Of a stretch of DNA of 64,000 bases, positions 43,383 to 57,063 are shown one piece after another; within the stretch, counting starts at the first letter, position 1; every line of letters begins with the position of its first letter. The position numbers and the translations under genes are program-made. Origin of the DNA: Candidatus Latescibacterota bacterium (GTDB lineage: Bacteria; Latescibacterota; UBA2968; GCA-2709665); the NCBI GenBank assembly GCA_965222075.1, contig OZ244937.1:4544001-4608000 (forward strand), written 5' to 3'. The notes beneath the pieces are model-generated. The model did no database searches and was not told the origin of the DNA. It saw only the letters and a list, made by a program, of their open reading frames with translations.

Positions 43383-44636
43383 CTACGCCCGGTACTTGCG
43401 CATGACAAGGACGGCGTTGTGGCCCCCAAAACCGAAGGAGTTGTTCACGGCCACCTCAACGGGCATTTCCCGGGCCTTGTTGGGCACATAGTCGAGGTCG
43501 CATTCGGGATCGGGGGTTTCGTAATTGATGGTAGGGGGGACCCGGTCCTGGTAGATGGCCAGGATGCTGGCGATTGTCTCGATCGCACCCGAGGCTCCCA
43601 GCAGGTGGCCGGTCATCGACTTAGTGGAACTGACCGCCAGTTTTGCCGCATGCTTTCCAAATACGGTTTTGATGGCTGCGGTTTCGCTTTTGTCGCCAAT
43701 TGGGGTTGAGGTGCCGTGGGCGTTGATGTAGTCGACATCTTCGGGCTGGAGGCCGGCCTGTTTCAAGGCCCTGTGCGTGGCCCGCGCCCCCCCCTCGCCG
43801 CGGGGGGCCATGTCGGCCATGTGATAGGCGTCTCCCGTGTATCCTGCGCCGCCGATTTCCGCATAGATGCGAGCGCCCCGACCCCGTGCGTGTTCCAGTT
43901 CTTCCAGGACCAGCCCCCCCGCGCCCTCACCAAGCACGAAGCCGTCCCGCTGGGCATCGAACGGCCTGCTGGCGCGTTGGGGCTCGTCGTTTTGGGTGGA
44001 GAGCGCCTTCATGGACGCGAAGCCTCCCAGGGACATCGGGCTGACGGCCGCCTCGGCACCGCCAGCGATCATGATGTCGGCCTCATCGTCCCGAATTTCC
44101 CGAAAGGCGTTTCCGATGGCGTGGGCAGCCGAGGAACACGCAGATACGGTCGTGTAGTTGGGGCCTTTTGCGCCCAGTTGGATGGAGACCTGCCCCGAGG
44201 TCATATCGGCGATCATCATTGGAATGAAAAAGGGACTGATCCGGCGCGGCCCTTTCTGCATCAGGGCGGTATGCTGGTCCTCAAAAGTCCAGATCCCCCC
44301 GATGCCCGAGCCGTAGATCACCCCGACCCGATCCGGGTCTTCGGCGGAGAGATCCAGTTTGGCGTCTTCTACGGCCATTTTGGCCGTCACAACGGCGTAC
44401 TGGGTACAGAGGTCGCTTCGACGCGCTTCCCTACGGTCCATGCCGAACCGCTCCGGGTCGAAGCCCTTCAACTCCCCGCCGATTTGGACCCGAAAATCAG
44501 TTGTGTCGAAGCCCTTGATATAGTCGATGCCGCTCTCTCCATTGAGGAGCGCATTCCAATAGGTTTCTGTGGACAGGCCGTTGGGGGCCAGTATCCCCAG
44601 ACCTGTGACTACCACCCGTCGTTTTGCATTGTCCAC
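43383..44636 (-). CDS. fabF: 3-oxoacyl-ACP synthase II
   Basis: RRVVVTGLG, SACSS, NAHGTST, TGHLLGA, NSFGFGGHN. Confidence 0.97.
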   Translation of the reverse strand: MDNAKRRVVVTGLGILAPNGLSTETYWNALLNGESGIDYIKGFDTTDFRVQIGGELKGFDPERFGMDRREARRSDLCTQYAVVTAKMAVEDAKLDLSAEDPDRVGVIYGSGIGGIWTFEDQHTALMQKGPRRISPFFIPMMIADMTSGQVSIQLGAKGPNYTTVSACSSAAHAIGNAFREIRDDEADIMIAGGAEAAVSPMSLGGFASMKALSTQNDEPQRASRPFDAQRDGFVLGEGAGGLVLEELEHARGRGARIYAEIGGAGYTGDAYHMADMAPRGEGGARATHRALKQAGLQPEDVDYINAHGTSTPIGDKSETAAIKTVFGKHAAKLAVSSTKSMTGHLLGASGAIETIASILAIYQDRVPPTINYETPDPECDLDYVPNKAREMPVEVAVNNSFGFGGHNAVLVMRKYRA

Positions 44637-44670
44637 CGGAGATGCCCTCTTATTGGGGGCTCCAGTCCCC

Positions 44671-44913
44671 CTATTCGCCCAGCCGTTTCTTCAAGTAGCC
44701 GATGGCGTCATTGACGGTTTCGAGCTTCTCGGCGTCTTCGTCGGGAATCTCGATGTCGAATTCCTCTTCAAACGCCATCACCAGTTCAACGGTGTCTAAG
44801 GAATCGGCGCCCAGATCGTCGATAAAGTAGGCATCCGGGGTTACGCTATCTGCATCTACACCGAGCTGATCCACAATCAGATCGCTCACTTTCTGCTGAA
44901 TATTCTCGGCCAT
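44671..44913 (-). CDS. acpP: Acyl carrier protein
   Basis: [20 protein letters not shown]. Confidence 0.98.
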
Positions 44914-45004
44914 TTTTTCCTCCTTTAACTGCGGTCAAACGGCAAACGACACACGGCCCTTCTCCACCCCACGCACCACACCCGGCAAACATCAAACGGG
45001 GAAC

Positions 45005-45072
45005 CGACCCATCCACCCTACCCTGAAACCCTGGCTCTGGCTTCGGAGAGGTGATGTGGGGAGACGTTTCAC
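45005..45072 (-). repeat. Dispersed repeat family B, copy 2
   Basis: Reverse complement is 59/68 identical to 35495-35562. Confidence 0.85.
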
Positions 45073-45083
45073 CTTTCACCTGG

Positions 45084-45830
45084 TTACATGACCATGCCAC
45101 CGTCCACCACCAGGACCTGCCCGGTGATATAGGCCGCATCGTCCGATACCAGAAACGCTACTGCCGCTGCGATGTCCTCCGGCTTGCCCGGAATACCCAG
45201 CGGAATCTGTTCGAGGAGTTTGTCTTTGACGTCTTGAGAAAGGTCCTGGGTCATTTCCGTGGGGATGAATCCGGGGGCAACCACATTGGCCGTGATCCCA
45301 CGGCCCGCCAGCTCCCGGGCAACGGTTTTGGTGAGTCCGATGAGTCCGGACTTCGATGCCGTATAGTTGACCTGGCCGGGGTTGCCCATCAGGCCGGTTA
45401 TCGACGAGATGTTGACGATGCGCCCGGTGCGTGCACGCATCATAGCACGCGTGGCTGCTTTGACGCAGAGAAACGCGCCCTTGAGGTTGATATCCAAGAC
45501 CGCGTCCCAGTCTTCCTCTTTCATCCGCATCAACAGGCCATCGCGGACGATCCCTGCGTTGTTGACCAGGATGTCGATCTTTCCCCAGGCGTCCAGGACC
45601 GTTTTGAAGAGGGCCTCCACATCGGTGGGGGTCGAGACATCGGCCTTAAGCCCGAGCGCGCGGCACCCCATCCTCTCGATCTGCTCGGCCACCGACCTGG
45701 CGGCGTCCAGGCTGCGACTGGCACATACGGCCACATCGGCCCCCTCGGCGGCCAGACGGAGCGCAATGGCCTTGCCGATGCCCCGAGAACCACCGGTGAC
45801 AACGGCTGTTCTGTCTTTTAATACGCCCAT
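45084..45830 (-). CDS. fabG: 3-oxoacyl-ACP reductase
   Basis: TGGSRGIG, NNAGIVRD, NYTASK, PGFI, YITGQVLVVDGG; next to acpP. Confidence 0.96.
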   Translation of the reverse strand: MGVLKDRTAVVTGGSRGIGKAIALRLAAEGADVAVCASRSLDAARSVAEQIERMGCRALGLKADVSTPTDVEALFKTVLDAWGKIDILVNNAGIVRDGLLMRMKEEDWDAVLDINLKGAFLCVKAATRAMMRARTGRIVNISSITGLMGNPGQVNYTASKSGLIGLTKTVARELAGRGITANVVAPGFIPTEMTQDLSQDVKDKLLEQIPLGIPGKPEDIAAAVAFLVSDDAAYITGQVLVVDGGMVM

Positions 45831-46813
45831 TTCAGGAGAACGCTGCCCCAGGTATATCCGCCTCCTACGCTCGCCAGGAGAATGTTATCTCTCGGTTTGA
45901 TCCGCCCCTGCTCAACGGCCTCGGAGAGCCCGATGGGGATGGTGCCGGAAGTGGTGTTGGCGTATCGGTCAATGTTGATCAGCACCCTGTCTGCGGGCAA
46001 TTTGAGCCGGTTGACACTGGCGTCGATAATCCGCTTGTTGGCCTGATGGGGCACAAAGAGGGCGATGTCTTCTCCCGTAAGCCCGTTGCGTTCCAGGAGC
46101 TTGACGGATACACCTACCAGGCTGGGGACGGCAAACTTGAAGACCTCCCGCCCCTCCTGATAGATATAGTGCATCTTTTTGTCGACGGTTTCGTGGCTGG
46201 CAGGATGGAGACTTCCCCCCCCGGGTTGGCAGAGATGTTTGCCGCCTGAGCCGTCGATGTGGAAGATAAAATCCTGGATGCCCGATCCATCTTCGGCCGG
46301 TTCCAGGAGCACCGCGCCCGCTCCATCTCCAAACAGGACGCAGGTTTCCCGGTCGGTATAGTCGACGACGGCACTCATCTTATCCGCGCCGATGACGACA
46401 ACCCTTTTATGGGCTCCTGTCTCTACAAATTGACTGCCGACCACGAGGGCGTAGAGAAACCCGGAGCAGGCTGCTGAGAGGTCGAATCCCCAGGCATTTT
46501 TGGCACCCACACTGTCCTGTACCAGGCACGCCGTGGCCGGATACATCATATCGGGCGTTATGGTGGCCACAATAATCAGGTCGATGTCTTTGGCATTTAG
46601 CCCCTTCTGTTCAAGCAGGCTTTCCAGGGCCTGGGCGGCCATATAGGAGGTCCCCAGGCCCTTACCGAGGATGCGCCGTTCTCGGATGCCGGTTCGGGTC
46701 TGGATCCATTCGTCTGAGGTATCGACCATTTTTTCCAGGTCTGCATTGGTCAGCCGTTGCTTGGGAAGATAGCGGGATACTCCGGTAATTGAGACAGAAA
46801 AGGTTTTTTTCAT
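45818..46813 (-). CDS. fabH: 3-oxoacyl-ACP synthase III
   Basis: DTSDEWIQTRTGI, AACSGF, FGDGAGA, PHQANKRI, ANT. Confidence 0.96.
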   Translation of the reverse strand: MKKTFSVSITGVSRYLPKQRLTNADLEKMVDTSDEWIQTRTGIRERRILGKGLGTSYMAAQALESLLEQKGLNAKDIDLIIVATITPDMMYPATACLVQDSVGAKNAWGFDLSAACSGFLYALVVGSQFVETGAHKRVVVIGADKMSAVVDYTDRETCVLFGDGAGAVLLEPAEDGSGIQDFIFHIDGSGGKHLCQPGGGSLHPASHETVDKKMHYIYQEGREVFKFAVPSLVGVSVKLLERNGLTGEDIALFVPHQANKRIIDASVNRLKLPADRVLINIDRYANTTSGTIPIGLSEAVEQGRIKPRDNILLASVGGGYTWGSVLLKWAY

Positions 46814-46914
46814 ACATTACCTGGCGTTTGAAAGGCGCTCTGGGACGCCCACCCTGGTTTTGGGCACAAGCCCGTGTTGGAGCAGGCAGAATCGATGTTC
46901 CACAGATAGGCTCG

Positions 46915-47027
46915 TGGTCATTCTCGCAAGTTCATGTGAAGCTTTCCTGCCTAATTGTCCTTAAGTTGGAAAAAAGTATGTAAACTATAGACTGTGAAAG
47001 CTTCACACATATTTCTGAGAACGACCA
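46915..47027. repeat. Long imperfect inverted repeat between rpmF and fabH
   Basis: Arms 46915-46946 and 46996-47027. Inner 12 bp perfect (tgtgaagctttc/gaaagcttcaca); outer 11 bp with one G-U. Confidence 0.75.
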
Positions 47028-47210
47028 CTAAACGGCTTCGCCTTCCATGGCCTCCCGGCTGTTGTAATGGCCGCAGTTGATACAGACCCGATGCGGCCGA
47101 CGCGGCTGCCCGCAGTTGGGGCACTCGGCAAAAGCAGGCATCGAGAGTTTCCAGTGCGTTCGCCGTTTACCGGTCCTGGAATGGGAGCTTCTTCGTTTCG
47201 GGTTTGCCAT
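47028..47210 (-). CDS. rpmF: 50S ribosomal protein L32
   Basis: MANPKRRSSHSR...CPNCG...HRVCINCGHY. Confidence 0.97.
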   Translation of the reverse strand: MANPKRRSSHSRTGKRRTHWKLSMPAFAECPNCGQPRRPHRVCINCGHYNSREAMEGEAV

Positions 47211-47291
47211 GTTGTTCTCCGAATAGATGTAGCATGGCGCATAGCGTGAAAAACAAAAACCCTATGCGCTATGCTCTGTGCGTTTGACGTT

Positions 47292-47798
47292 TCACGCTTT
47301 CAACGCCCGCAGCGCTTCCCACCGCGGGTCGATGGTTTCGGCTTTACACGTGCACTGTTTGAGGTTCAGGTTTTCTCCGCAGGAAGGACAGAGCCCCGCG
47401 CACGATTCTTTACAAACGGGGCCGATCGGGACCTCGAGGAGAATATAGTCTTTGACCTCTTTTCCCAGATCGATTTTCCCACGTTCGTCATCCAGCCAGA
47501 TGAGCGTCTCGTCCTCATCGCCTCTTAGGGAGGAGGGGCGCCCCTTCTGGAAAATAAATTGGAAGTGAGACGTCAGGCGCAGGTCGAACGGTTCCAGGCA
47601 GCGGACACAGTCTAAGCGGAGGCGGAAGTTTGTATCTCCACTGGTCGAGAGCGAATCGCCCAGCTTAAAGACCGTCATCCGGGTCCTGATGGGGTGTACG
47701 AACCGCAGGTCCGGATCACCGATATGCAGGTCTTCGGGAGCCTCGGCCCATTCGTATTCGTTGGCCCCTTCTTGCAGTTCACGCAGATCGATTTCCAC
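47292..47798 (-). CDS. yceD: DUF177/YceD family protein
   Basis: CVRCL, CKESCAGLCPSCGENLN, DPRWEAL; upstream of rpmF. Confidence 0.93.
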   Translation of the reverse strand: MEIDLRELQEGANEYEWAEAPEDLHIGDPDLRFVHPIRTRMTVFKLGDSLSTSGDTNFRLRLDCVRCLEPFDLRLTSHFQFIFQKGRPSSLRGDEDETLIWLDDERGKIDLGKEVKDYILLEVPIGPVCKESCAGLCPSCGENLNLKQCTCKAETIDPRWEALRALKA

Positions 47799-48220: not shown

Positions 48221-48290
48221 TTATCCGACCCGGGAAGCAAAAAGATGCAAATGATCAACAGGATGTTGGGCTGTCAGCCTGAAGATGAAA

Positions 48291-48319
48291 AAAATAGAAT
48301 TTCTCAGGGAATTTGTCAA
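48291..48319 (-). promoter_or_regulatory. Sigma70-type promoter for the ndk-fab operon (TTGACA-17-TATTTT)
   Basis: TTGACA at 48319-48314 and TATTTT at 48296-48291. Confidence 0.5.
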
Positions 48320-48370
48320 TACCATTTTTCGACGTCCGTCGCCCCGGGGGAGCCCGTTTTAAGAAAACGG

Positions 48371-48399
48371 TTGACAGGAAGGCGGCCTCACCGTTTAAT
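48371..48399 (+). promoter_or_regulatory. Sigma70-type promoter for the putative ether-lipid operon (TTGACA-17-TTTAAT)
   Basis: TTGACA at 48371-48376, a 17-nt spacer, and TTTAAT at 48394-48399. Confidence 0.65.
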
Positions 48400-48520
48400 T
48401 ATATAGGCTTCGGCTTTGAAAATGTCAACAAAATTATGGAAAAGCAGGCAACGGTCAGCAAAAGTCAAAAAGCCGACGGCCGGCTGTCTGATTAAACTTC
48501 TCTTTCTTTTTCAGGTTCCA

Positions 48521-50119
48521 ATGAATTCCATTTCTCACTTCTTAGACGGCAAGGTCCTGCTTGTCACAGGATCGACCGGATTTGTAGCGAAGGGACTGGT
48601 GGAGAAGCTTCTGCGGTGTGTCCCTGATATACAACGGATTTATCTGCTGGTTCGACCCAGACGTCAGTCGAGCGGGACACCCGTTTCGGCGGAGCAGCGG
48701 TTGGCACGGGAGGTGTTCCCCAGCCGTGCTTTTGAGAAGCTGCGGAAACAGCGGGGACCGGCGTTCGACAGCGTCATCCGGCAGAAGGTTGTGGCTGTGG
48801 CCTATGATCTGGCAGTGGATCGGCTGGGCATCGATCCGGAGGTCTATGCGCGGCTTACCCAAGAGGTAGACATTGTGATCAGCGTTGCGGGCACTGTGGT
48901 TTTTGACGAGCGCCTCGACCTCGCCCTGGAAGTGAATACCCTCGGCCCCCAACGGCTGCTTGAGTTTGCAAAGGCCTGCCCAGATGCCATTTTCCTCCAC
49001 GTGTCGACCGCGTACGTCAACGGGCAGCTGACAGGGCGGATTCCCGAAGTGGTGCTCCCGCCGGATCGTACCATTGCAGAACTGATGGGTAATGGTCGGG
49101 CGTGTGTGTACGATCTGGATGCTGAGATTGCGTCAATCCGGCAGCTCACCCGGCAGGTGGAGGAGACGTCACAGCGCTCGGAGCTCCAGGACCGGTTCCA
49201 CCGAATGCTGGAGAAGCAGGACAGGGGCAAACGGGTTACGGCGTATAGGCGGACGCACCAGCTTGAGGCCCTGCGTATCCGGTGGATTAAGAAGCGGCTG
49301 GTGGAGGAGGGTATGGTCAGGGCGCGGCAGCTGGGCTGGCACGACTGTTACACCCTGACGAAGGCTATGGGCGAACAGGTGATCGTCAAGACCCGGGGGG
49401 ATTTGCCCACGGCCATTGTCCGGCCTTCGATTATCGAAAGCAGCCTGCTGGATCCCGAACCGGGGTGGCTGGAGGATTTGAAGGTGGCCGATCCGCTGAT
49501 CTCCTACTACAGCAAGGGGCGGCTGTCCGATTTTCCCGCGAATCCCGATGTTGTGGTCGATGTGATTCCCGTGGACTTTGTGGTCAATGCGATTATTGCG
49601 GCTCTTCCGAGGGTGCGGGAGGAGAAGGAGATCAAAGTTTACCAGGTGGCCACCGGGTCTGAGAACCCGATGCGACTGGGGGAGATGTTTGAGCTGGTTT
49701 ACGACTATTTTAAGCGGAACCCCATGCAGGATAAAGCCGGACGGCCCATTGAAGTGCACCAGTGGAATTTCCCCAGCCGGGAGACGTTTCGACGCAACTG
49801 CCGCTTAAAATACAAACTTCCCCTTCATACGCTGGGCTGGTTGATGGACCACATCCCACTGTCTTCGCGGTGGAGGCGAAAGGTCTCGATGCTGGAAGCG
49901 ACATTTGACCGGATATTCGCCCTGAGCGAGATTTACAGTTCCTATACCCACCTGAATTGCGAGTTCGAGACGGAGAATACCCGCCGGCTTTATGAAGAAC
50001 TAAATCCTGAAGACCAGGAGATCTTTAACTTCGACGTGACCCGAATCGAATGGCAGGACTACATCCAGAACATCCACATCCCGGGGTTACAGCGCCACGT
50101 GTTGAAAACCCACACTTGA
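48521..50119 (+). CDS. Alcohol-forming fatty acyl-CoA reductase (FAR; NAD_binding_4 plus Sterile domain)
   Basis: VTGSTGFVAKGLVEKLLR, HVSTAYVNG, GWHDCYTLTKAMGE (YxxxK), IVRPSIIES, DVIPVDFVVN, FNFDVTRIEWQDYIQNIHIPGL. Confidence 0.92.
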   Translation: MNSISHFLDGKVLLVTGSTGFVAKGLVEKLLRCVPDIQRIYLLVRPRRQSSGTPVSAEQRLAREVFPSRAFEKLRKQRGPAFDSVIRQKVVAVAYDLAVDRLGIDPEVYARLTQEVDIVISVAGTVVFDERLDLALEVNTLGPQRLLEFAKACPDAIFLHVSTAYVNGQLTGRIPEVVLPPDRTIAELMGNGRACVYDLDAEIASIRQLTRQVEETSQRSELQDRFHRMLEKQDRGKRVTAYRRTHQLEALRIRWIKKRLVEEGMVRARQLGWHDCYTLTKAMGEQVIVKTRGDLPTAIVRPSIIESSLLDPEPGWLEDLKVADPLISYYSKGRLSDFPANPDVVVDVIPVDFVVNAIIAALPRVREEKEIKVYQVATGSENPMRLGEMFELVYDYFKRNPMQDKAGRPIEVHQWNFPSRETFRRNCRLKYKLPLHTLGWLMDHIPLSSRWRRKVSMLEATFDRIFALSEIYSSYTHLNCEFETENTRRLYEELNPEDQEIFNFDVTRIEWQDYIQNIHIPGLQRHVLKTHT

Positions 50120-50201
50120 AACTGAGATTTGAGCGCTTGCAGGATCCCATGGGGCTGAAGCGTGGGAGATGTGGGTTTTTTTGTTTTTCAGGAACGTTTT
50201 G

Positions 50202-52190
50202 ATGGACCGTCGCTATTCTGGCTCCACACCTCTGCTTGACCTGCATATCAACGAACTGATCAACGATTCGGATCAGATGCTGGTTATCTACGACCAGATG
50301 GCGCAGGAGATTATTGAGTTGGGACGCCCAGAGGGGTATTTTGAGAGCTGGGACACCGAGGCGCTGAGGTGGCCGCAAAGCCGGACCGAGGCCGGACCGA
50401 TTGACCTGGAGGGTCTGCAGGCGCGGGTGGGGTTGGTGGATGCCTTTTACCAGGGTGTTCCCAGGCTTCGGGACGAGCGGTTGGCCGAGGCTTACGAGCA
50501 GTTCAGCCGTCTGGCAGCCGCCTACCAGAAAGGGAACCGGATCTACCGGCAGGTCAAGGCGCAGTTCACCGCGCGGGGCGCCGGGACAGAGCAAGATTTT
50601 CTCCAGCTTTATCAGACCCTCTACATCGAGGCGCTGGCAAAGGGGGACCTCTTTGCCCCGGATGTGGGGGAGGCGGCCCTGGCGCAGGCGAGGGTCTCCC
50701 GGGTACCTCTTTCACACGCACAGGTCGTGGCCGAGGCCCTCTCGACGGTTGTCTTAGACGACGATCTCAGGTGGGAGGTTCTCTATTCCTGTACGGTGGA
50801 CGGGGTCACGGTCGAGGCCTCTCTGCGCGATCTGCTTCGGGATGTGGCCCAGCGGACTTTAGACCACATTGCGGCCGGCGAACTTTTAGCGACCCGTTAC
50901 AATACGTACAACAACCTGGGCTGGTTCGGTAGTTCGGTCTGGAAGGTCGTTGTGGGTGCCGAGTTGTTGTTGCATCGGCTCGCCGCCCGGCCCAATGGAG
51001 ATGCGGGGGAACAGGAGGCCGTCCGGTCGGATATCCGGCTTGCGCAGGGCATGCTGATCGCGTTTTTCCAGGCCCACCGCGAAGACCCTGCCCGGTTGAA
51101 GCCAGAGAAGTACTGGTACGGACAGGATTACAGCTATTTGACCCGGGATATGATCGACCTGGGGGTTCGGCTGGTGGGCCGCGTCAACCGGCTGGTTCGG
51201 GATGCGAACCGCTTTGGTGGGGAGGGTGGATTGGAGGCGCTTGCGCTGCCCCCCCTCTTAGCCGGGGAGGCCCGCGGGCGGTTTGTGGAATATCCCCAAG
51301 TTGGCAGACGGGCAACACTCTCTCCCGGGCAGCGGGCGTTCAGGCTCGGACGCTGGGCGCTGGCCTCCTGGAAGACAGGCCGGCGCAGGGTGCGGTTGGC
51401 CAGATCGGTGCTGGAAGAGGATCGTCGGTTGGAGCGGGCGTGGCAGGAGTGGCTGAGGTGGGCCGAGGCCACGCTTCGAATTTTTGACATTCAGGTCAAG
51501 ATCTGTATCGATCCCCAGTTTTTCCGGATTGCCAGAGAGCTGGATCTGGACAGTGGAAAGCGGAAGGTCCTTTTTTTGCCGGCCCACCAGAGTCTGCTGG
51601 ACCATCCGATTATGTATCACGTGCTGGGCTCCTCCGAACTGATGGCTGCGATGGGCTGGGAAAAGCCGAGGCCCTGCGTGCTTCTGGGTCGCACCGGGCT
51701 GTCCAGGGCGGGCGTGAGGATCGGCCCCTGGGACTTTACGATGTTTGGCGTCTCTTCGGAGACCTTCGACTGGATGCTGGAAGAGGTGGATGGTTATGTG
51801 ACGCGCGAACGCGTCGGTGGGACAGGCTCTACGGCCATGAGGGTTGTGGCGGCGCTGGGAAAACGCCCGGGCATCATCTATCCTATGGGGACAACGCCCG
51901 CTTTCGGCATCCAACTCTTTCCACTCCAGCATGGTATGTTCGCCCAGCTGCCCCATGATGTGGTCATTGTGCCCATCGTTTTTCGAGGCGCCCACTCCCT
52001 CTGGCCCAAGTGTCCCAAGGGGAATCTGAACATCAATCCGGGCGTGGTCGAGGCCGTGGTTGCTCCCCCGATGCTGGGTGAGACCACGCTGCTGCCGAAG
52101 CGGCGGCGGCTGCGGATTCAGCTGGAGGCCGCAAATCTCTTTCAGGCGGTTCACATTTCTACGCTGTTGAATCCCGAGCCTTCGGGGTAA
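50202..52190 (+). CDS. Glycerolipid acyltransferase (HX4D family) with about 430 aa of unknown helical N-terminal domain; putative DHAP acyltransferase
   Basis: LFLPAHQSLLDH (motif I), IIYPMGT (variant of FPEGT), IVPIVFRG. Substrate is inferred from gene context only. Confidence 0.7.
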   Translation: MDRRYSGSTPLLDLHINELINDSDQMLVIYDQMAQEIIELGRPEGYFESWDTEALRWPQSRTEAGPIDLEGLQARVGLVDAFYQGVPRLRDERLAEAYEQFSRLAAAYQKGNRIYRQVKAQFTARGAGTEQDFLQLYQTLYIEALAKGDLFAPDVGEAALAQARVSRVPLSHAQVVAEALSTVVLDDDLRWEVLYSCTVDGVTVEASLRDLLRDVAQRTLDHIAAGELLATRYNTYNNLGWFGSSVWKVVVGAELLLHRLAARPNGDAGEQEAVRSDIRLAQGMLIAFFQAHREDPARLKPEKYWYGQDYSYLTRDMIDLGVRLVGRVNRLVRDANRFGGEGGLEALALPPLLAGEARGRFVEYPQVGRRATLSPGQRAFRLGRWALASWKTGRRRVRLARSVLEEDRRLERAWQEWLRWAEATLRIFDIQVKICIDPQFFRIARELDLDSGKRKVLFLPAHQSLLDHPIMYHVLGSSELMAAMGWEKPRPCVLLGRTGLSRAGVRIGPWDFTMFGVSSETFDWMLEEVDGYVTRERVGGTGSTAMRVVAALGKRPGIIYPMGTTPAFGIQLFPLQHGMFAQLPHDVVIVPIVFRGAHSLWPKCPKGNLNINPGVVEAVVAPPMLGETTLLPKRRRLRIQLEAANLFQAVHISTLLNPEPSG

Positions 52191-52296
52191 AACAGGGGCC
52201 AGGGGTCGGGTATCAGGAGTCAGTAAAGGCAAACACCGATGAACGGACGGAGGTCCATCCGGAGGGGATGATGGTTGATATCAGGGGAAATTTATC

Positions 52297-54156
52297 ATGG
52301 TAGAAGCAATAGCTTTGGCGATTGTTGTGGTAGCAGTTTTTGCAATATACCTGGTGAAGCGGCGGCGTTCCTATCGGGACTTAGACGCTTTTTACGACCT
52401 TTCTGAAGGAGAGCGATTTGCCCACAAATGGGGGTATACGGATACCCGGTTTGAGTTTGAGGACCCCAGGACCGTTAAGGTCACCGGGAGCAGATATCCA
52501 ATATCGGGTTACCGGATGCCGTATCTGGTTTCCTTCTTAGAGGATACGCTCGATATCTCTGTCCATCCGGACGATATGAATGTGGAGGTGGAAGACCAGG
52601 AGGTGCCCGAACCGAATACCAACGGTGGGTTTCTGGCTTCTGTTCAGGCCAAATTCAAAGCGGACCAATATTCACTCGATGCAAAGGAGCGCCTGATTCA
52701 CAGCCACGGACAGTTGAGCGTGGACGAAATTTATCGGGTGCTGTATTCGTCATCGCTGAAACGGATAGTCGATCTGGTCTTTTATCCTGAGGGAGAAGAT
52801 GATGTCAGGGCGGTTATCGAACTGGCGAACGAGCACAATGTGTGCTTAGTGCCCTATGGAGGCGGGACGAACGTAAGCGGCGCGCTGGCCTGTCCGGTTG
52901 GAGAACAGCGGATGATTGTGTCGGTGGATTTGAGGCGCATGAACCGAATTCTGTGGGTTGATAAGGAGAATTATCTGGCCTGCGCTGAAGCGGGCATCCT
53001 GGGCAAGCAGCTGGAGGTGGGGCTTGAGGCAAAGGGGTACACGTCGGGGCACGATCCGGACAGTGTTGAGCTTTCGACTCTGGGGGGATGGATTGCGACC
53101 AACGCCAGCGGGATGAAAAAGAACAGATACGGCAATATCGAAGAGATCGTGCTTGAGGCCACGCTGGTTACTCCTACGGGGGAGATTGAAACGAAGCATG
53201 TAACGCCGAGGAATTCAACCGGCATCCAGCCCAGGTCTTTTCTGTTCGGCAGCGAGGGCAATTTTGGCATTATTACCAAGGCGGTGATCAAGATCCATCT
53301 CCTGCCGGAGGCGCGCAAATACGGGTCGCTTGTGTTCCCCTCTTTTGAGAAGGGCGTCGGCTTCTTAAAGGCATTGCGTCAGACGGGCGGGTTGCCCGCA
53401 AGTATCCGTCTGGGGAGCAATAAGGAGCTTCGATTCGCGCAGGCTTTAAAACAGGAACCGACATTTTTGAAGAGGACTAAAGAGAAGGTGCAGGCATTCT
53501 TTATGCAGAAGATCCTGAGCTTCGATCCGATGCAGATGGTCGTCTGCACCATTGTGATGGAGGGTTCAAAGGAGGAGGTGCGCCAGCAGGATAAGACGAT
53601 CTTCAGTCTGGCTAAAAAGCACGGCGGCATGAGCGCCGGCGCGAGCATCGGAAAACGGGGGTATGCGCTGACGTTCGGGATTGCTTATATTCGGGACTTC
53701 GTCAACGAGCTTCAGATCCTCGGGGAGACGTTTGAGACGTCGGTGCCGTGGGATAAGATCCACCAGGTGTGCCAGGCCGTGCAGGAAGAATTAGATGAAC
53801 AGGCGGTAAGGTATCACATACCGGGCAAGCCTTATCTCCAGTACCGTGTTCCGCAGACTTACCACACAGGGGTTTGCATTTATTTTACGATGGGTTTTTG
53901 TGGGAAAGGGCTGGAAAGACCGGATGAGGTTTTTCACAATATCGAGCGGCGCCTGCGGCAGGTTATTCTCGACAACGGCGGCTCTTTGTCCCACCACCAC
54001 GGCGTAGGCAAGATCCGGCAAGGCTTCCTGCCCCAGGTTCAGACTGAAAACACCATCCATGTTTTGCGTCAGACTAAAAAGGCGATGGATCCCAACAACA
54101 TCTTTGGAATCAGAAACGGCGTTTTTAATGCGTTCCCTGATGATTTATTAATGTAA
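52297..54156 (+). CDS. agpS: Alkyl-dihydroxyacetonephosphate synthase (alkylglycerone-phosphate synthase), with N-terminal TM anchor
   Basis: WGYTD, PYGGGTNVS, GHDPDSVELSTLGGWIATNASGMKKNRYGNIE, GSEGNFGIIT, PASIRL, RGYALTFGIAYIRD, ETFETSVPWD, GVCIYF, SLSHHHGVGKIR, DPNNIFG. Confidence 0.92.
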   Translation: MVEAIALAIVVVAVFAIYLVKRRRSYRDLDAFYDLSEGERFAHKWGYTDTRFEFEDPRTVKVTGSRYPISGYRMPYLVSFLEDTLDISVHPDDMNVEVEDQEVPEPNTNGGFLASVQAKFKADQYSLDAKERLIHSHGQLSVDEIYRVLYSSSLKRIVDLVFYPEGEDDVRAVIELANEHNVCLVPYGGGTNVSGALACPVGEQRMIVSVDLRRMNRILWVDKENYLACAEAGILGKQLEVGLEAKGYTSGHDPDSVELSTLGGWIATNASGMKKNRYGNIEEIVLEATLVTPTGEIETKHVTPRNSTGIQPRSFLFGSEGNFGIITKAVIKIHLLPEARKYGSLVFPSFEKGVGFLKALRQTGGLPASIRLGSNKELRFAQALKQEPTFLKRTKEKVQAFFMQKILSFDPMQMVVCTIVMEGSKEEVRQQDKTIFSLAKKHGGMSAGASIGKRGYALTFGIAYIRDFVNELQILGETFETSVPWDKIHQVCQAVQEELDEQAVRYHIPGKPYLQYRVPQTYHTGVCIYFTMGFCGKGLERPDEVFHNIERRLRQVILDNGGSLSHHHGVGKIRQGFLPQVQTENTIHVLRQTKKAMDPNNIFGIRNGVFNAFPDDLLM

Positions 54157-54168
54157 GTAGGCCATAAA

Positions 54169-54975
54169 ATGCCTCAAGAAAAGACAGTGATCATAACAGG
54201 GGCTTCTTCGGGGCTTGGTGCATCGCTGGCCCTGGAATTCGCCAAGGCCGGAGCGAATCTTGGGCTGTTTGCGCTGGACGAGGAAGGGCTGATGGAAACC
54301 GCAGGTAAGTGTCGGGAGCGCGAGGCCCGCGTTCTTACGGCTGCCGGAGATGTGGGAAGGCCAGAAGACTGTGAACAGCTGGTTGAAGATACGGTTTCCC
54401 AATTTGGGGGGGTGGACTACCTGATTGCCTGCGCCGGTGTGAGTATGTGGGCGAAATTCGAAGAGATTGAGGACGTATCCATATTCCGCAAGCTTATGGA
54501 GACAAATTACCTTGGCATTGTCAACTGCGTATATTACGCCCTTCCGCATTTGAAGGTGCGCAGCGGGATGATTGTGGCCATCTCCTCGATCCAGGGCAAG
54601 ATAGGCGTTCCGTTCCATACAGGTTATGTCGCCTCTAAGCACGCTGTGCAGGGTTTTTTCGAGTCTCTGCGAGCCGAGCTCAGCGGGAGCGGCGTGAATG
54701 TCCTGACCGTATTGCCCCACTGGTTGAGGGGGACCAATTTGCGGAAGAGCGCTTTTGGGAAAGATGGGAGCTCTATGGGAGCGTCGGAGAAAGAACACAG
54801 CAAGGAGTCCATCTCTCTTGAGGAATGCTGTCAGGCCATCCTCAAAGCAATCGAAAAGAGGAAAAGGGAGTTGGTCATTCCTTCAAAGCTCAAGGTCCTT
54901 CCGTGGTTAAATCTGATCAATCCCAAGATTGTAGCGTTTTTCGTTAAGGGGGCGATGGAACAGCAGGACAGGTAG
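54169..54975 (+). CDS. SDR oxidoreductase, DHRS7/DHRS7B-like (putative acyl/alkyl-DHAP reductase)
   Basis: ITGASSGLG, METNYLG, IVAISSIQGK, YVASKHAVQGFFESLRAEL. Confidence 0.8.
   Translation: MPQEKTVIITGASSGLGASLALEFAKAGANLGLFALDEEGLMETAGKCREREARVLTAAGDVGRPEDCEQLVEDTVSQFGGVDYLIACAGVSMWAKFEEIEDVSIFRKLMETNYLGIVNCVYYALPHLKVRSGMIVAISSIQGKIGVPFHTGYVASKHAVQGFFESLRAELSGSGVNVLTVLPHWLRGTNLRKSAFGKDGSSMGASEKEHSKESISLEECCQAILKAIEKRKRELVIPSKLKVLPWLNLINPKIVAFFVKGAMEQQDR

Positions 54976-55003: not shown

Positions 55004-57063
<2,060 letters not shown>

What the first reader, a model, noticed from the sequence alone, without database searches (positions are those of the whole stretch)
48371..54975. Apparently complete eukaryote-type (peroxisomal) ether-lipid pathway as a four-gene bacterial operon
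Seen: four co-oriented, closely spaced genes behind a TTGACA-17-TTTAAT promoter: fatty acyl-CoA reductase, HX4D acyltransferase, AGPS-type flavoprotein and SDR. Established: animal ether-lipid synthesis uses FAR1 (fatty alcohol), GNPAT (acyl-DHAP), AGPS (exchange of acyl for alkyl) and acyl/alkyl-DHAP reductase (DHRS7B/PexRAP) to make 1-O-alkyl-glycerol-3-phosphate. The bacterial routes I know are myxobacterial ElbD plus an AGPS homolog, anaerobic PlsAR, and Ger. Inference: this operon encodes all four steps as separate proteins in pathway order and makes alkyl ether lipids in a non-myxobacterial lineage. I do not know of this arrangement being described, but cannot verify that.
Basis: partly seen in the sequence, partly recalled or inferred. 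Interest (0 to 1): 0.95.

Follow-up and report, generated by a model that had tools for sequence, protein, structure and literature searches.

The report
Ether-lipid operon in a Latescibacterota genome
A bacterium of the candidate phylum Latescibacterota carries four adjacent genes that most likely build ether-linked membrane lipids by the route animal peroxisomes use, one of them from a previously undescribed enzyme family, in a lineage that has lost the usual bacterial first steps of membrane-lipid synthesis.

Summary
The four genes are real, co-oriented and closely spaced. They are a fatty acyl reductase (FAR, 48521-50119), a 662-aa protein I call P2 (50202-52190), a true alkyl-DHAP synthase (AGPS, 52297-54156; E 1.7e-147 to mammalian AGPS, catalytic residues kept) and a classical SDR (54169-54975).

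The same order recurs in 36 of 80 related species loci. AGPS and the SDR stay adjacent even where P2 has moved away.

P2 is the weak link. It has an HX4D motif and only sub-threshold likeness to acyltransferases, and profile searches find no GNPAT, PlsB or PlsC relative. No fold could be made.

New context supports the reading. All 131 genomes of the window's class lack PlsY and GpsA, and 130 lack PlsX. 129 of them carry P2. 42 of 52 close relatives have only one recognisable acyltransferase.

Best reading (0.6): a DHAP-based ether-lipid pathway with P2 as the acyl-DHAP-forming enzyme.

The idea is not wholly new. Myxococcus xanthus has a three-gene AGPS operon with FAR fused to the acyltransferase, and AGPS homologues in Latescibacterota were already reported in metagenome screens. 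New here: the split four-gene layout, the P2 family, and the loss of the canonical pathway. Verdict: new variant of a known kind.

The parts
48371..48399 (+). promoter-like element TTGACA-17 nt-TTTAAT upstream of the operon
   Evidence: Read directly. Both hexamers and the spacing are conserved in L003 and L006, while the leader downstream diverges in L006. Not listed by the consensus scan, because position 2 of the second hexamer is T. Function not shown.
48521..50119 (+). fatty acyl-CoA/ACP reductase (FAR), 532 aa; makes the fatty alcohol
   Evidence: PF07993 NAD_binding_4 4.3e-64 and PF03015 Sterile 3.3e-18. GSTGFVAKG and YTLTK motifs are seen in the translation. It is the only strong FAR in the genome. 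The closest long relatives are the FAR domains of ElbD-like proteins, up to 55% identity. The ORF starts at TTG 48416; ATG 48521 is the conserved start.
50202..52190 (+). P2, 662 aa: N-terminal ~440 aa of unknown fold plus a C-terminal divergent HX4D acyltransferase-like domain; proposed DHAP (glycerone-phosphate) acyltransferase
   Evidence: H462-x4-D467 (window 51585-51602). Four acyltransferase blocks align in register with the ElbD-type acyltransferase domain by hhalign (E 0.0031, probability 10%). The real score of 35.0 exceeds all 60 column shuffles (max 26.7). PF01553 is sub-threshold in 10 of 26 family members. There is no other relative among 1.84 billion representatives. Present in 132 of 168 phylum genomes.
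52297..54156 (+). alkyl-DHAP synthase (AGPS), 619 aa, with an N-terminal membrane anchor (residues 1-23)
   Evidence: E 1.7e-147, residues 44-607 aligned to 95-656 of guinea-pig AGPS 4bby; next family 7.9e-22. R371, Y529 and H566-568 are invariant in 26 bacterial homologues and align with R419, Y578 and H615-617 of the solved enzyme. Hydrophobic N-terminus with KD 2.81; 22 of 26 homologues have one.
54169..54975 (+). classical short-chain dehydrogenase/reductase, 268 aa; proposed acyl/alkyl-DHAP reductase
   Evidence: PF00106 8.4e-47. NF004825 scores 294 bits against a cut-off of 215, with no function named. TGASSGLG and YVASK motifs. Orthologues are present in 119 of 168 phylum genomes and sit next to AGPS even where P2 is elsewhere. 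The nearest solved structures are 11-beta-HSD1, 4.6e-26.

Best explanation
The four genes form an operon for AGPS-dependent synthesis of 1-O-alkyl-glycerol-3-phosphate, the precursor of alkyl ether membrane lipids, in a Latescibacterota bacterium.

Proposed steps:
1. FAR reduces an activated fatty acid to a fatty alcohol. Inferred from family membership; likely.
2. P2, a new and very divergent HX4D acyltransferase-like protein, acylates DHAP to 1-acyl-DHAP. Inferred; about even odds on its own.
3. The membrane-anchored AGPS swaps the acyl group for the alcohol and makes the ether bond. The family assignment is shown; the activity is inferred with high confidence.
4. The SDR reduces the keto group of alkyl-DHAP, and probably also of acyl-DHAP, to give 1-alkyl- or 1-acyl-glycerol-3-phosphate. 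Inferred from tight linkage to AGPS.
5. The single PlsC-like enzyme then acylates sn-2.

The whole class that holds this genome lacks GpsA, PlsX and PlsY. This DHAP route may therefore be the main entry to membrane glycerolipids there, not an accessory pathway.
For: AGPS identity:
- E 1.7e-147 to solved AGPS, against at best 7.9e-22 for lactate, glycolate and 2-hydroxyglutarate dehydrogenases.
- the residues aligned with R419, Y578 and H615-617 are invariant.

FAR and SDR domains.

Synteny:
- 36 of 80 species loci have FAR-P2-AGPS-SDR in this order and strand. 3 more are cut by contig ends after AGPS.
- L007 has a divergent AGPS followed by an SDR.

AGPS-SDR coupling:
- AGPS is in 124 and the SDR in 119 of 168 phylum genomes, with the same family pattern.
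- They are adjacent also in family f4, where P2 is far away. In G147, for example, AGPS is at 4553004-4554812, the SDR at 4552196-4552984 and P2 at 724638-726563.

P2 as an acyltransferase:
- HX4D with invariant His, a block II Arg, GTT in block III and Pro in block IV.
- These blocks are in register with the ElbD acyltransferase domain and score above 60 of 60 shuffles.
- Language-model features are nearest to PlsC-like clusters, 0.89. This is a lead only.

P2 in this pathway:
- Two genomes that keep PlsY still carry all four genes together: G039/L039, which also keeps GpsA and PlsX, and G173/L052.

Canonical route missing:
- PlsY 0 of 131, GpsA 0 of 131 and PlsX 1 of 131 in families f1-f4, against 26, 28 and 33 of the 35 genomes in families f5-f14 other than f8.
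- The closed own genome has no PlsY, PlsX or GpsA. plsX is missing from its usual slot between rpmF and fabH in the window.
- Only 1 of 137 P2-bearing genomes examined has GpsA.
- 42 of 52 genomes of f1+f2 have a single PF01553 acyltransferase.
- The other acyltransferases of the own genome are patchy: 19 of 168 and 9 of 168.

Weak expression evidence: contigs at least 99% identical, from four RNA-library runs of one study, lie within each of the four genes.
Against: P2 fails every significance test for membership in known acyltransferase families:
- Pfam is below the cut-off.
- An HMM profile finds no relative outside its own family in 1.84 billion proteins, and none in the PDB at E up to 10.
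- hhalign probability is only 10%. It is 1.4% against the own AMP-ACP-AT protein, and there is no domain match to the own 464-aa acyltransferase.
- 3 of 26 members weakly hit PF17042 instead.
- Block III lacks the Glu and Arg thought to bind glycerol phosphate (the role is recalled).
- No structure could be predicted.

P2 is not tied to AGPS and the SDR:
- 28 of 80 loci have P2 alone with room on both sides, and 5 have FAR-P2 only.
- At least 9 phylum genomes, plus G001 and G002, have P2 but no AGPS or SDR orthologue. There, acyl-DHAP would need another reductase, or P2 uses another acceptor.

G036 lacks P2 as well as PlsX, PlsY and GpsA, and has only an ElbD-like protein. P2 is therefore not the only way to live without the canonical route.

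The absences are family-model absences. Related genomes are not independent, so the pattern rests on a handful of evolutionary events.

The RNA contigs come from libraries that may hold DNA, and they cannot show one transcript.

No lipid data exist for this organism.
Confidence: 0.6

Rival explanations
1. FAR and P2 are the real functional pair, and P2 transfers acyl groups to another acceptor. That acceptor could be a fatty alcohol (giving wax esters), or a lyso-ether lipid or glycerol-3-phosphate. AGPS would get its acyl-DHAP from a different enzyme, and the adjacency to AGPS-SDR reflects shared use of the fatty alcohol.
For: - FAR-P2 adjacency is kept in genomes without AGPS or the SDR (G013, G042, G044, L047, L069). 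There it is followed by HAD hydrolase or other genes.
- P2 block III lacks the Glu and Arg of glycerol-phosphate acyltransferases.
- No WS/DGAT wax synthase was found in the own genome, so that role would be vacant (the control was silent, so this is weak).
Against: - P2 is kept as a solitary single-copy gene where FAR is fused into ElbD-like proteins (f4).
- 42 of 52 genomes in f1+f2 have only one recognisable acyltransferase and no PlsX, PlsY or GpsA. Some unrecognised enzyme must therefore start glycerolipid assembly, and P2 is the near-universal candidate.
- The block II Arg is retained.
- The four genes travel together into PlsY-bearing genomes.
Confidence: 0.2
2. P2 is not an acyltransferase at all. 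It could be a scaffold, regulator or enzyme of unknown kind, and its HX4D motif and weak profile matches are chance or relics. The operon would still make ether lipids through FAR, AGPS and the SDR, with acyl-DHAP from an unidentified source.
For: - There are no significant matches to any acyltransferase family or structure.
- The N-terminal 440 residues have no lead at all.
- hhalign probability is 10% or less.
Against: - All four acyltransferase blocks align in register.
- The real score exceeds 60 of 60 shuffles.
- PF01553 is the recurrent weak hit, in 10 of 26 members and also in the distant members P0247 and P0248.
- The catalytic His is invariant.
- The language-model neighbours are PlsC-like.
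Confidence: 0.1
3. The window's FAR mainly serves an Elb-type (ElbD-like) ether-lipid route. The own genome has an AMP-binding/ACP/acyltransferase gene with epimerase and HAD neighbours but no reductase domain. The AGPS branch would be minor, as reported for M. xanthus.
For: - The own genome's elb-like cluster at 3.169-3.176 Mb lacks a FAR domain.
- The window FAR is the only strong FAR in the genome and is most like ElbD FAR domains.
- In M. xanthus the AGPS route gives minor amounts (passage in 10.64898/2026.06.23.733905).
Against: - That elb-like acyltransferase gene is found in only 9 of 168 phylum genomes, while the four-gene operon is in nearly all of f1 and f2.
- The FAR is physically and syntenically tied to P2-AGPS-SDR.
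- This reading is compatible with the best explanation rather than exclusive of it.
Confidence: 0.05
4. The flavoprotein is a D-lactate, glycolate or 2-hydroxyglutarate dehydrogenase, and the cluster has nothing to do with ether bonds.
For: It shares the PF01565 and PF02913 domains with those enzymes. NCBIfam glcD matches at 153 bits, far under its cut-off of 568.
Against: - E 1.7e-147 over nearly the full length to solved AGPS, against 7.9e-22 or worse for the dehydrogenases.
- AGPS-specific catalytic residues are invariant.
- A separate GlcD-like paralogue exists elsewhere in the genome.
Confidence: 0.02

Closest known systems
[quoted passage not shown]
   Same: A bacterial operon joins AGPS with fatty acyl reductase, acyltransferase and a Rossmann-fold reductase-type function. 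The AGPS is about as similar to the animal enzyme. Source: passages of 10.1101/2025.10.10.681575 / PMC13012113 and PMC9131029.
   Different: - Here there are four genes, with FAR and the acyltransferase-like protein separate.
- The gene order follows the pathway.
- The acyltransferase-like protein is not detectably GNPAT/AGPAT-like and has a 440-aa unknown N-terminal domain.
- The last gene is a classical SDR, not an extended epimerase-type one.
- The host lacks GpsA, PlsX and PlsY.
- No CarF/PEDS1 was found, though the control was silent.
Mammalian peroxisomal ether-lipid pathway: FAR1/2, GNPAT, AGPS, acyl/alkyl-DHAP reductase (DHRS7B/PexRAP)
   Same: The same four chemical steps are proposed. 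AGPS is a true homologue (E 1.7e-147). The FAR has the same two Pfam domains, including the 'Sterile' domain. The reductase is a classical SDR whose nearest solved relatives are 11-beta-HSD1. By my recollection that enzyme lies near DHRS7/DHRS7B among human SDRs. The steps were read in PMC9131029.
   Different: - P2 is not a GNPAT homologue by any significant test.
- The AGPS carries an N-terminal membrane anchor instead of a peroxisomal targeting signal.
- The SDR has Asp after the second beta strand. By recalled rules this suggests NADH rather than NADPH.
- Orthology of the SDR to DHRS7B was not tested.
ElbD / elbB-elbE ether-lipid cluster of M. xanthus and ElbD-like proteins of Acidobacteriota, Poribacteria, Planctomycetota and Latescibacterota
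   Same: The window's FAR is most similar (up to 55% identity) to the N-terminal FAR domain of these ~1450-aa FAR/AMP-binding/ACP/acyltransferase proteins. P2's C-terminal domain aligns, weakly, with their acyltransferase domain. Relatives in family f4 carry such proteins.
   Different: The window has no AMP-binding or ACP domain and does have AGPS. The Elb route needs no AGPS, and its ether-forming step is unknown (passages).
FARAT of ciliates, kinetoplastids and amoebae (FAR fused to GNPAT)
   Same: FAR is immediately followed by an acyltransferase function, here as neighbouring genes 82 nt apart. FAR-P2 is the most conserved pair in the P2 family.
   Different: There is no fusion. The open frames around P2 are 648-807 aa in the 20 loci read, and there is no FAR-P2 fusion among the 120 longest FAR relatives listed. 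No detectable GNPAT homology.
Yeast acyl-DHAP pathway (Gat1/Gat2 dual G3P/DHAP acyltransferases plus Ayr1 acyl-DHAP reductase); recalled, not read here
   Same: It makes lysophosphatidate from DHAP by acylation followed by SDR reduction. That is what these GpsA-less genomes would need.
   Different: Yeast keeps G3P dehydrogenase and has no AGPS. No sequence comparison was possible.

Membership tests
AGPS (alkylglycerone-phosphate synthase, EC 2.5.1.26) | FAD_binding_4 plus FAD-oxidase_C domains of the VAO superfamily | tested here: met
   PF01565 4.4e-38 and PF02913 1.5e-34.
AGPS (alkylglycerone-phosphate synthase, EC 2.5.1.26) | Full-length similarity to experimentally solved AGPS, far above other flavoprotein dehydrogenases | tested here: met
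   E 1.7e-147 (4bby, residues 44-607 vs 95-656) and 1.2e-89 (2uuu). The next best is 7.9e-22.
AGPS (alkylglycerone-phosphate synthase, EC 2.5.1.26) | Catalytic Arg419, Tyr578 and the His615-617 loop (guinea-pig numbering; the roles are recalled from the structural literature) | tested here: met
   These align with R371, Y529 and H566-568, which are invariant in 26 of 26 bacterial homologues.
AGPS (alkylglycerone-phosphate synthase, EC 2.5.1.26) | Exchange of the acyl group of acyl-DHAP for a fatty alcohol | not testable with these tools
   Needs an enzyme assay or heterologous expression.
Alcohol-forming fatty acyl reductase (FAR1/MS2/ElbD-FAR type) | NAD_binding_4 Rossmann domain followed by the 'Sterile' C-terminal domain; GxxGxxG and YxxxK motifs | tested here: met
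   PF07993 4.3e-64 and PF03015 3.3e-18. The motifs are read.
GNPAT / GPAT-AGPAT acyltransferases (Pfam PF01553) | Block I HX4D | tested here: met
   H462 is invariant, with D (E in some members) at +5, in 26 sequences.
GNPAT / GPAT-AGPAT acyltransferases (Pfam PF01553) | Score above the family's curated threshold | tested here: not met
   13.3 bits against a cut-off of 23. 10 of 26 members match at E up to 1, with a best E of 0.014, and none is over the cut-off. The genome-wide PF01553 search does not pick it up.
GNPAT / GPAT-AGPAT acyltransferases (Pfam PF01553) | Detectable homology to GNPAT, PlsB, PlsC or any solved acyltransferase | tested here: not met
   The profile of 26 sequences found 64 hits in 1.84 billion representatives. 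All were own-family members or fragments, apart from one chance hit. The PDB profile search gave no acyltransferase at E up to 10.
GNPAT / GPAT-AGPAT acyltransferases (Pfam PF01553) | Profile-profile likeness of the whole catalytic domain (blocks I-IV in register) | tested here: inconclusive
   hhalign against the ElbD-like acyltransferase domain: E 0.0031, probability 10%, 146 columns. Score 35.0 against a maximum of 26.7 in 60 column shuffles. Against single own-genome acyltransferases: E 0.036 and 0.2.
GNPAT / GPAT-AGPAT acyltransferases (Pfam PF01553) | Block III (F/Y)-x-E-G-T-R | tested here: not met
   The consensus is IYPMGTT. Glu and Arg are replaced; Gly and Thr are kept.
GNPAT / GPAT-AGPAT acyltransferases (Pfam PF01553) | Acyltransferase alpha/beta fold | not testable with these tools
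The Atlas has no model.
GNPAT / GPAT-AGPAT acyltransferases (Pfam PF01553) | Specificity for DHAP as acceptor | not testable with these tools
   Only indirect support: operon context and the absence of GpsA.
Acyl/alkyl-DHAP reductase (DHRS7B/PexRAP, Ayr1) | Classical SDR with TGxxxGxG and S...YxxxK | tested here: met
   PF00106 8.4e-47. TGASSGLG and YVASK.
Acyl/alkyl-DHAP reductase (DHRS7B/PexRAP, Ayr1) | Orthology to DHRS7B or Ayr1 | not tested
   No DHRS7B or Ayr1 sequence was held. The nearest solved structures are 11-beta-HSD1 at 4.6e-26. NCBIfam names it only 'SDR family oxidoreductase'.
Acyl/alkyl-DHAP reductase (DHRS7B/PexRAP, Ayr1) | Functional coupling to AGPS | tested here: met
   It shares AGPS's family-level distribution (119 vs 124 of 168). 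It is adjacent to AGPS in the listed places, including in f4 where P2 is unlinked. It follows AGPS in 36 of 80 loci.
M. xanthus-type AGPS operon (MXAN_1676-1674) | FAR and acyltransferase fused in one protein; third gene of the NAD-dependent epimerase/dehydratase family | tested here: not met
   The genes are separate. The last gene is a classical SDR. The operon description was read in passages.
ElbD multidomain enzyme | FAR, AMP-binding, ACP and acyltransferase domains in one ~1450-aa protein | tested here: not met
   The window FAR has only PF07993 and PF03015. ElbD-like proteins exist in relatives.

The most novel reading that the evidence does not exclude
A whole class of Latescibacterota (131 genomes sampled) has given up the canonical bacterial start of phospholipid synthesis (GpsA, PlsX, PlsY; no PlsB). 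It builds its membrane glycerolipids from DHAP as peroxisomes do. A previously unrecognised acyltransferase family (P2) makes acyl-DHAP. AGPS converts it to alkyl-DHAP with FAR-derived alcohol. An SDR supplies 1-alkyl- or 1-acyl-glycerol-3-phosphate. Ether lipids would then be principal, not accessory, membrane lipids of these widespread and uncultured bacteria, some of them sponge-associated. P2 would be a third kind of bacterial 'first acyltransferase' beside PlsB and PlsY.
Probability: 0.35. Interest if true: 0.8.

Novelty: new variant of a known kind. Interest (0 to 1): 0.65.

Why it matters
- Source of environmental ether lipids. Bacterial ether lipids are used as environmental and palaeoclimate markers and are abundant in sponges, yet their makers and pathways are poorly known. 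A defined, portable four-gene module gives a directly testable route: express it and look for monoalkyl glycerol ethers.
- Bacterial lipid biochemistry. If P2 is the DHAP acyltransferase, it is a new enzyme family. It would fill the 'missing GNPAT' in bacteria that have AGPS and FAR but no recognisable GNPAT.
- A third way to start phospholipid synthesis. A large lineage would live without GpsA, PlsX, PlsY and PlsB, which touches the textbook view of how bacteria begin phospholipid synthesis.
- Origin of the eukaryotic pathway. Current work derives it from Myxococcota, using searches that P2-type proteins would escape.

Tried and rejected
**Structure.** No fold search was therefore possible, and the acyltransferase fold of P2 remains untested.

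**Atlas.** P0003 is not held. The stored homologue P0012 gave only leads under 0.9 to PlsC-like clusters and nothing for residues 1-430.

**PDB.**
- The P2 sequence gave no hit at E up to 10.
- The P2 profile gave two chance hits to a phage coat protein at E 0.6.

**FAR-P2 fusion.**
- The genome search reported open frames of 1265-1345 aa around P2 in four g11 genomes, and 1042-1098 aa in some g29/g31 genomes.
- My reading of 20 loci gave 648-807 aa, with L021, which is the G085 place, at 680 aa.
- No FAR-P2 fusion appeared among the 120 longest FAR relatives.
- Fusion rejected for the loci read; the discrepancy is unexplained.

**P0304.** The only non-family hit of the profile search, at 2.5e-4, is a DEAD/zinc-finger-type protein, so it is chance.

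**Neighbours of solitary P2.** They are varied and uninformative: M81 peptidase, NfeD/SPFH, helicase, histidine kinase, enolase-like, PIG-L.

**Absences with silent controls.** CarF/PEDS1 (PF10520) and WS/DGAT (PF03007) were not found in the own genome. The tool's controls rang nowhere, so these absences are not shown.

**Promoter.** I rely on conservation and claim no function.

**Terminators.** 8 found against 9.4 expected. None is useful.

**Rfam.** No family in the window.

**RNA.**
- Bins 52018-52271 had no cover in any of the four RNA-library runs, and several other bins were bare in single runs. This proves nothing.
- Contigs cannot show a transcript, a strand or a level.
- No silent stretch could be laid as a DNA control, because the cap is one call.

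**Complex prediction.** Not sent. I do not claim that P2 binds AGPS, and the two proteins exceed the size limit uncut.

**Trees against references.** No such reference sequence was obtainable: homologue searches returned only bacterial and metagenomic proteins and were capped.

**Maximum-likelihood tree.** The run did not finish in time. The FastTree result is used instead. Its root is a midpoint only, and L039 and L052 meet as long branches.

**Literature.**
- Seven searches found no description of this four-gene arrangement, of the P2 family, or of a bacterial lineage lacking gpsA/plsX/plsY in favour of a DHAP route.
- Subscription papers, for example Lorenzen et al. 2014, and all supplements were not seen.
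- The datasets of PMC13012113 may list Latescibacterota hits for single genes and name the five non-myxobacterial phyla.

Full report
**What is there.**

The window is bases 4544001-4608000 of a single-contig 5.36-Mb genome, 97.6% complete. Between 48.4 and 55.0 kb lie four + strand ORFs. Upstream, on the other strand, are ndk, yceD, rpmF, fabH, fabG and fabF. Downstream, convergent, are bioD- and bioA-like genes.

- **FAR.** The first ORF has both Pfam domains of alcohol-forming fatty acyl reductases. Its conserved start is ATG 48521.
- **AGPS.** The third ORF matches solved mammalian AGPS at E 1.7e-147 over almost its whole length. Lactate, glycolate and 2-hydroxyglutarate dehydrogenases reach only 1e-21 or worse. 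The residues aligned with Arg419, Tyr578 and His615-617 of the solved enzyme are invariant in 26 bacterial homologues. The roles of those residues are recalled. It begins with a hydrophobic segment followed by basic residues, as do 22 of 26 homologues. That suggests a membrane anchor.
- **SDR.** The fourth ORF is a classical SDR with both signature motifs. Curated models give it no function.
- **Promoter.** The hexamers are in the sequence. They are conserved in another genus, where the leader that follows is not. The consensus scan does not support or list them.

**The second gene (P2).**

This is the uncertain part.
- It carries H-x4-D with an invariant His.
- Pfam Acyltransferase is below threshold in the window protein and in the 10 of 26 relatives that match at all.
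- A profile of 26 sequences, run against 1.84 billion representative proteins, returned 64 hits. All were members or fragments of the same family, except one chance hit. The same profile found no solved acyltransferase.
- Profile-profile comparison with 12 ElbD-like proteins aligns P2 residues 446-622 with their acyltransferase domain, with blocks I to IV in register. E is 0.0031 and the probability only 10%.
- In my own run the score of the C-terminal part (35.0) exceeded all 60 column shuffles, whose maximum was 26.7.
- Comparisons with single acyltransferases of the own genome were weaker or failed.
- Language-model features point to PlsC-like clusters at 0.89, which is a lead only.
- The N-terminal 440 residues resemble nothing.
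- No structure could be predicted.

I therefore call P2 a probable, very divergent acyltransferase of a family of its own. It is not a member of the GNPAT/GPAT family.

**Where else it occurs.**

P2 relatives carry record titles such as Candidatus Latescibacterota, with some bins labelled Gemmatimonadota, Eisenbacteria, Handelsmanbacteria, Zixibacteria or Trueperaceae.

Of 165 species-level matches, 80 loci were kept. They sort as follows:

| Arrangement | Loci |
|---|---|
| FAR-P2-AGPS-SDR, same order and strand | 36 |
| FAR-P2-AGPS, cut at the contig end | 3 |
| L007: divergent AGPS followed by an SDR | 1 |
| FAR-P2 only, with room on both sides | 5 |
| FAR-P2, cut off | 4 |
| P2 alone, with room on both sides | 28 |
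| P2 alone, cut off | 3 |

On a FastTree of P2, the solitary genes form one side of a branch with support 98. The four-gene form lies on both sides of the midpoint root. This fits one unlinking event, though the root is not established.

**Counts in the phylum.**

The sample is 168 genomes including the window's own. The tool codes families f1-f14 without names, and f1-f4 form the window's class.

| Gene (threshold) | Genomes of 168 | f1 | f2 | f3 | f4 | Elsewhere |
|---|---|---|---|---|---|---|
| P2 | 132 | 21/21 | 31/31 | 3/3 | 74/76 | f8 1/1, f14 1/5, none in the rest |
| AGPS (E <= 1e-100) | 124 | 21/21 | 29/31 | 1/3 | 71/76 | f14 1/5 |
| SDR orthologue (E <= 1e-60) | 119 | 21/21 | 29/31 | 0/3 | 68/76 | none |
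| FAR (E <= 1e-80) | 130 | 21/21 | 31/31 | 3/3 | 71/76 | f8 1/1, f13 1/1, f14 1/5 |

- AGPS and the SDR are adjacent in the listed places even in f4, where P2 lies megabases away. This is the best evidence that the SDR works on the AGPS product.
- In f4 the FAR domain mostly sits in ~1400-aa ElbD-like frames.
- In two genomes outside this sample, G001 and G002, FAR is fused to AMP-binding and HAD domains. AGPS is absent there and P2 is solitary.

**The canonical pathway is missing.**

| Gene | Genomes of 168 | f1-f4 | f8 | f13 | Other families |
|---|---|---|---|---|---|
| PlsY | 29 | 0/131 | 0/1 | 0/1 | f5 3/3, f6 3/3, f7 1/1, f9 2/2, f10 10/13, f11 1/1, f12 4/6, f14 5/5 |
| GpsA N-terminal domain | 29 | 0/131 | 0/1 | 0/1 | 29 of the other 34 |
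| PlsX | 34 | 1/131 (G150) | 0/1 | 0/1 | 33 of the other 34 |

- The closed own genome has none of the three. plsX is also absent from its usual place between rpmF and fabH in the window.
- The controls rang in all or most bacterial control genomes.
- Of 137 P2-bearing genomes examined, one (G039) has GpsA. Four have PlsY: G039, G173, G174 and G175.
- PF01553 acyltransferases number exactly one in 42 of 52 genomes of f1+f2.
- The own genome's two extra acyltransferases are patchy: 19 of 168 and 9 of 168.
- Those genomes therefore need an unrecognised enzyme to put the first chain on a three-carbon backbone. They also lack the enzyme that turns DHAP into glycerol-3-phosphate.
- P2 acting on DHAP, followed by the SDR, would supply both needs.
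- G039 and G173 keep PlsY yet carry all four genes together. This suggests the module, P2 included, does something PlsY cannot.

**What speaks against.**

- P2 occurs without AGPS and without the SDR orthologue in at least nine phylum genomes and in G001 and G002. Either another reductase acts there, or P2 uses another acceptor. L036 has a different SDR next to P2. L008 and L069 have a HAD hydrolase.
- G036 lacks P2 and the canonical genes alike, and has only an ElbD-like protein.
- P2's block III lacks the Glu and Arg typical of glycerol-phosphate acyltransferases.
- Related genomes are not independent. The complementary pattern rests on perhaps five or six events.
- Absence of a Pfam match is not proof of absence of the function.

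**Expression.**

Four RNA-library runs of one study, labelled sponge metagenome, hold short contigs at least 99% identical to pieces of all four genes at low depth. The libraries may contain DNA, and contigs cannot show a single transcript. This is weak support only.

**Comparison with what is known.**

The closest described system is the M. xanthus operon MXAN_1676-1674: AGPS, a FAR-acyltransferase fusion and an epimerase-family protein. I read it in passages of 10.1101/2025.10.10.681575 (sections 11 and 12 and passages; also passages of its PNAS version PMC13012113) and of PMC9131029.
- That work found the full plasmalogen gene set in 73 bacterial genomes, 61 of them Myxococcota. Its main text does not name Latescibacterota. 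Its search for GNPAT used a family signature that P2 would not meet.
- Metagenome screens reported AGPS homologues in 67 of 92 and ElbD homologues in 50 of 92 Latescibacterota MAGs (passages of PMC11868695).
- Another screen noted agps and elbD in sponge-associated Latescibacterota (passages of 10.64898/2026.06.23.733905).
- None of the passages read describes gene order, P2 or the missing canonical genes. Supplements were closed.

**Verdict.**

It is a new variant of a known kind of system. Two parts, as far as my searches show, are new: the P2 family, and the class-wide loss of GpsA, PlsX and PlsY. Interest 0.65.

Noticed in passing
window 43383-47798 (- strand): The fatty-acid synthesis cluster runs yceD, rpmF (47028-47210), fabH, fabG, fabF. 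There is no plsX between rpmF and fabH, and no room for fabD between fabH and fabG. This matches the genome-wide absence of PlsX.
   Followed up: partly
G000:C1:3169163-3176490 (L112 7164-14490), outside the window: The own genome has an elb-like cluster: an AMP-binding/ACP/acyltransferase protein (845 aa), an epimerase-family protein, a HAD hydrolase, an unknown protein, an aldo-keto reductase and a Zn-ADH. It has no reductase (FAR) domain, and the only strong FAR of the genome is the one in the window. This looks like a 'split ElbD'. Its acyltransferase part is found in only 9 of 168 phylum genomes.
   Followed up: partly
L097 2383-7310 (G001) and L098 4247-8569 (G004): Relatives carry other FAR architectures. 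One is FAR-Sterile-AMP-binding-HAD (1231 aa) followed by a Zn-ADH. The other is an ElbD-like FAR-Sterile-AMP-binding-acyltransferase (1440 aa), next to lgt and about 19 kb from AGPS-SDR.
   Followed up: partly
G036 (family f13): This genome is 96% complete and lacks P2, AGPS, the SDR orthologue, PlsX, PlsY and GpsA. It has an ElbD-like protein and two PF01553 matches. How it starts glycerolipid synthesis is unexplained.
   Followed up: no
L039 (G039) and L052 (G173): Two genomes that keep PlsY carry the complete four-gene cluster. G039 also keeps PlsX and GpsA. Their P2 sequences sit on long branches that join each other in the tree. This is possible horizontal transfer of the module. L052's record is labelled Trueperaceae.
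   Followed up: partly
window 48291-48319 (- strand) and 48290-48330: A second promoter-like site (TTGACA-17-TATTTT) faces ndk. It lies in a block that is almost invariant between the window, L003 and L006. A conserved divergent control region lies between ndk and the operon.
   Followed up: no
window 55004-57063 (- strand): The bioD-like ORF (483 aa as listed) overlaps the bioA-like ORF by about 760 nt. Its AAA_26 domain covers only residues 258-459, so the true bioD start is probably internal.
   Followed up: no
rows G076, G085, G090, G094 (g11) and G160, G164, G169-G171: the genome search reports open frames of 1042-1345 aa around P2 in these genomes. My own reading of the G085 place (L021) gives 680 aa between stops. 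The discrepancy is unexplained.
   Followed up: partly
window 52297-52365 and alignment A3: Bacterial AGPS homologues from several labelled phyla mostly start with a hydrophobic helix followed by Arg/Lys (22 of 26). The labels include Poribacteria, Marinimicrobia, Gammaproteobacteria and Latescibacterota. The four without it are about 590 aa and may be mis-started gene calls.
   Followed up: partly
alignment A1: Three of 26 P2 family members weakly match Pfam PF17042 (NBD_C, best E 7.3e-4). I did not locate the matching region.
   Followed up: no
window 1-64000: No Rfam family reaches its gathering score anywhere in the window. GC skew is positive over nearly the whole window.
   Followed up: no
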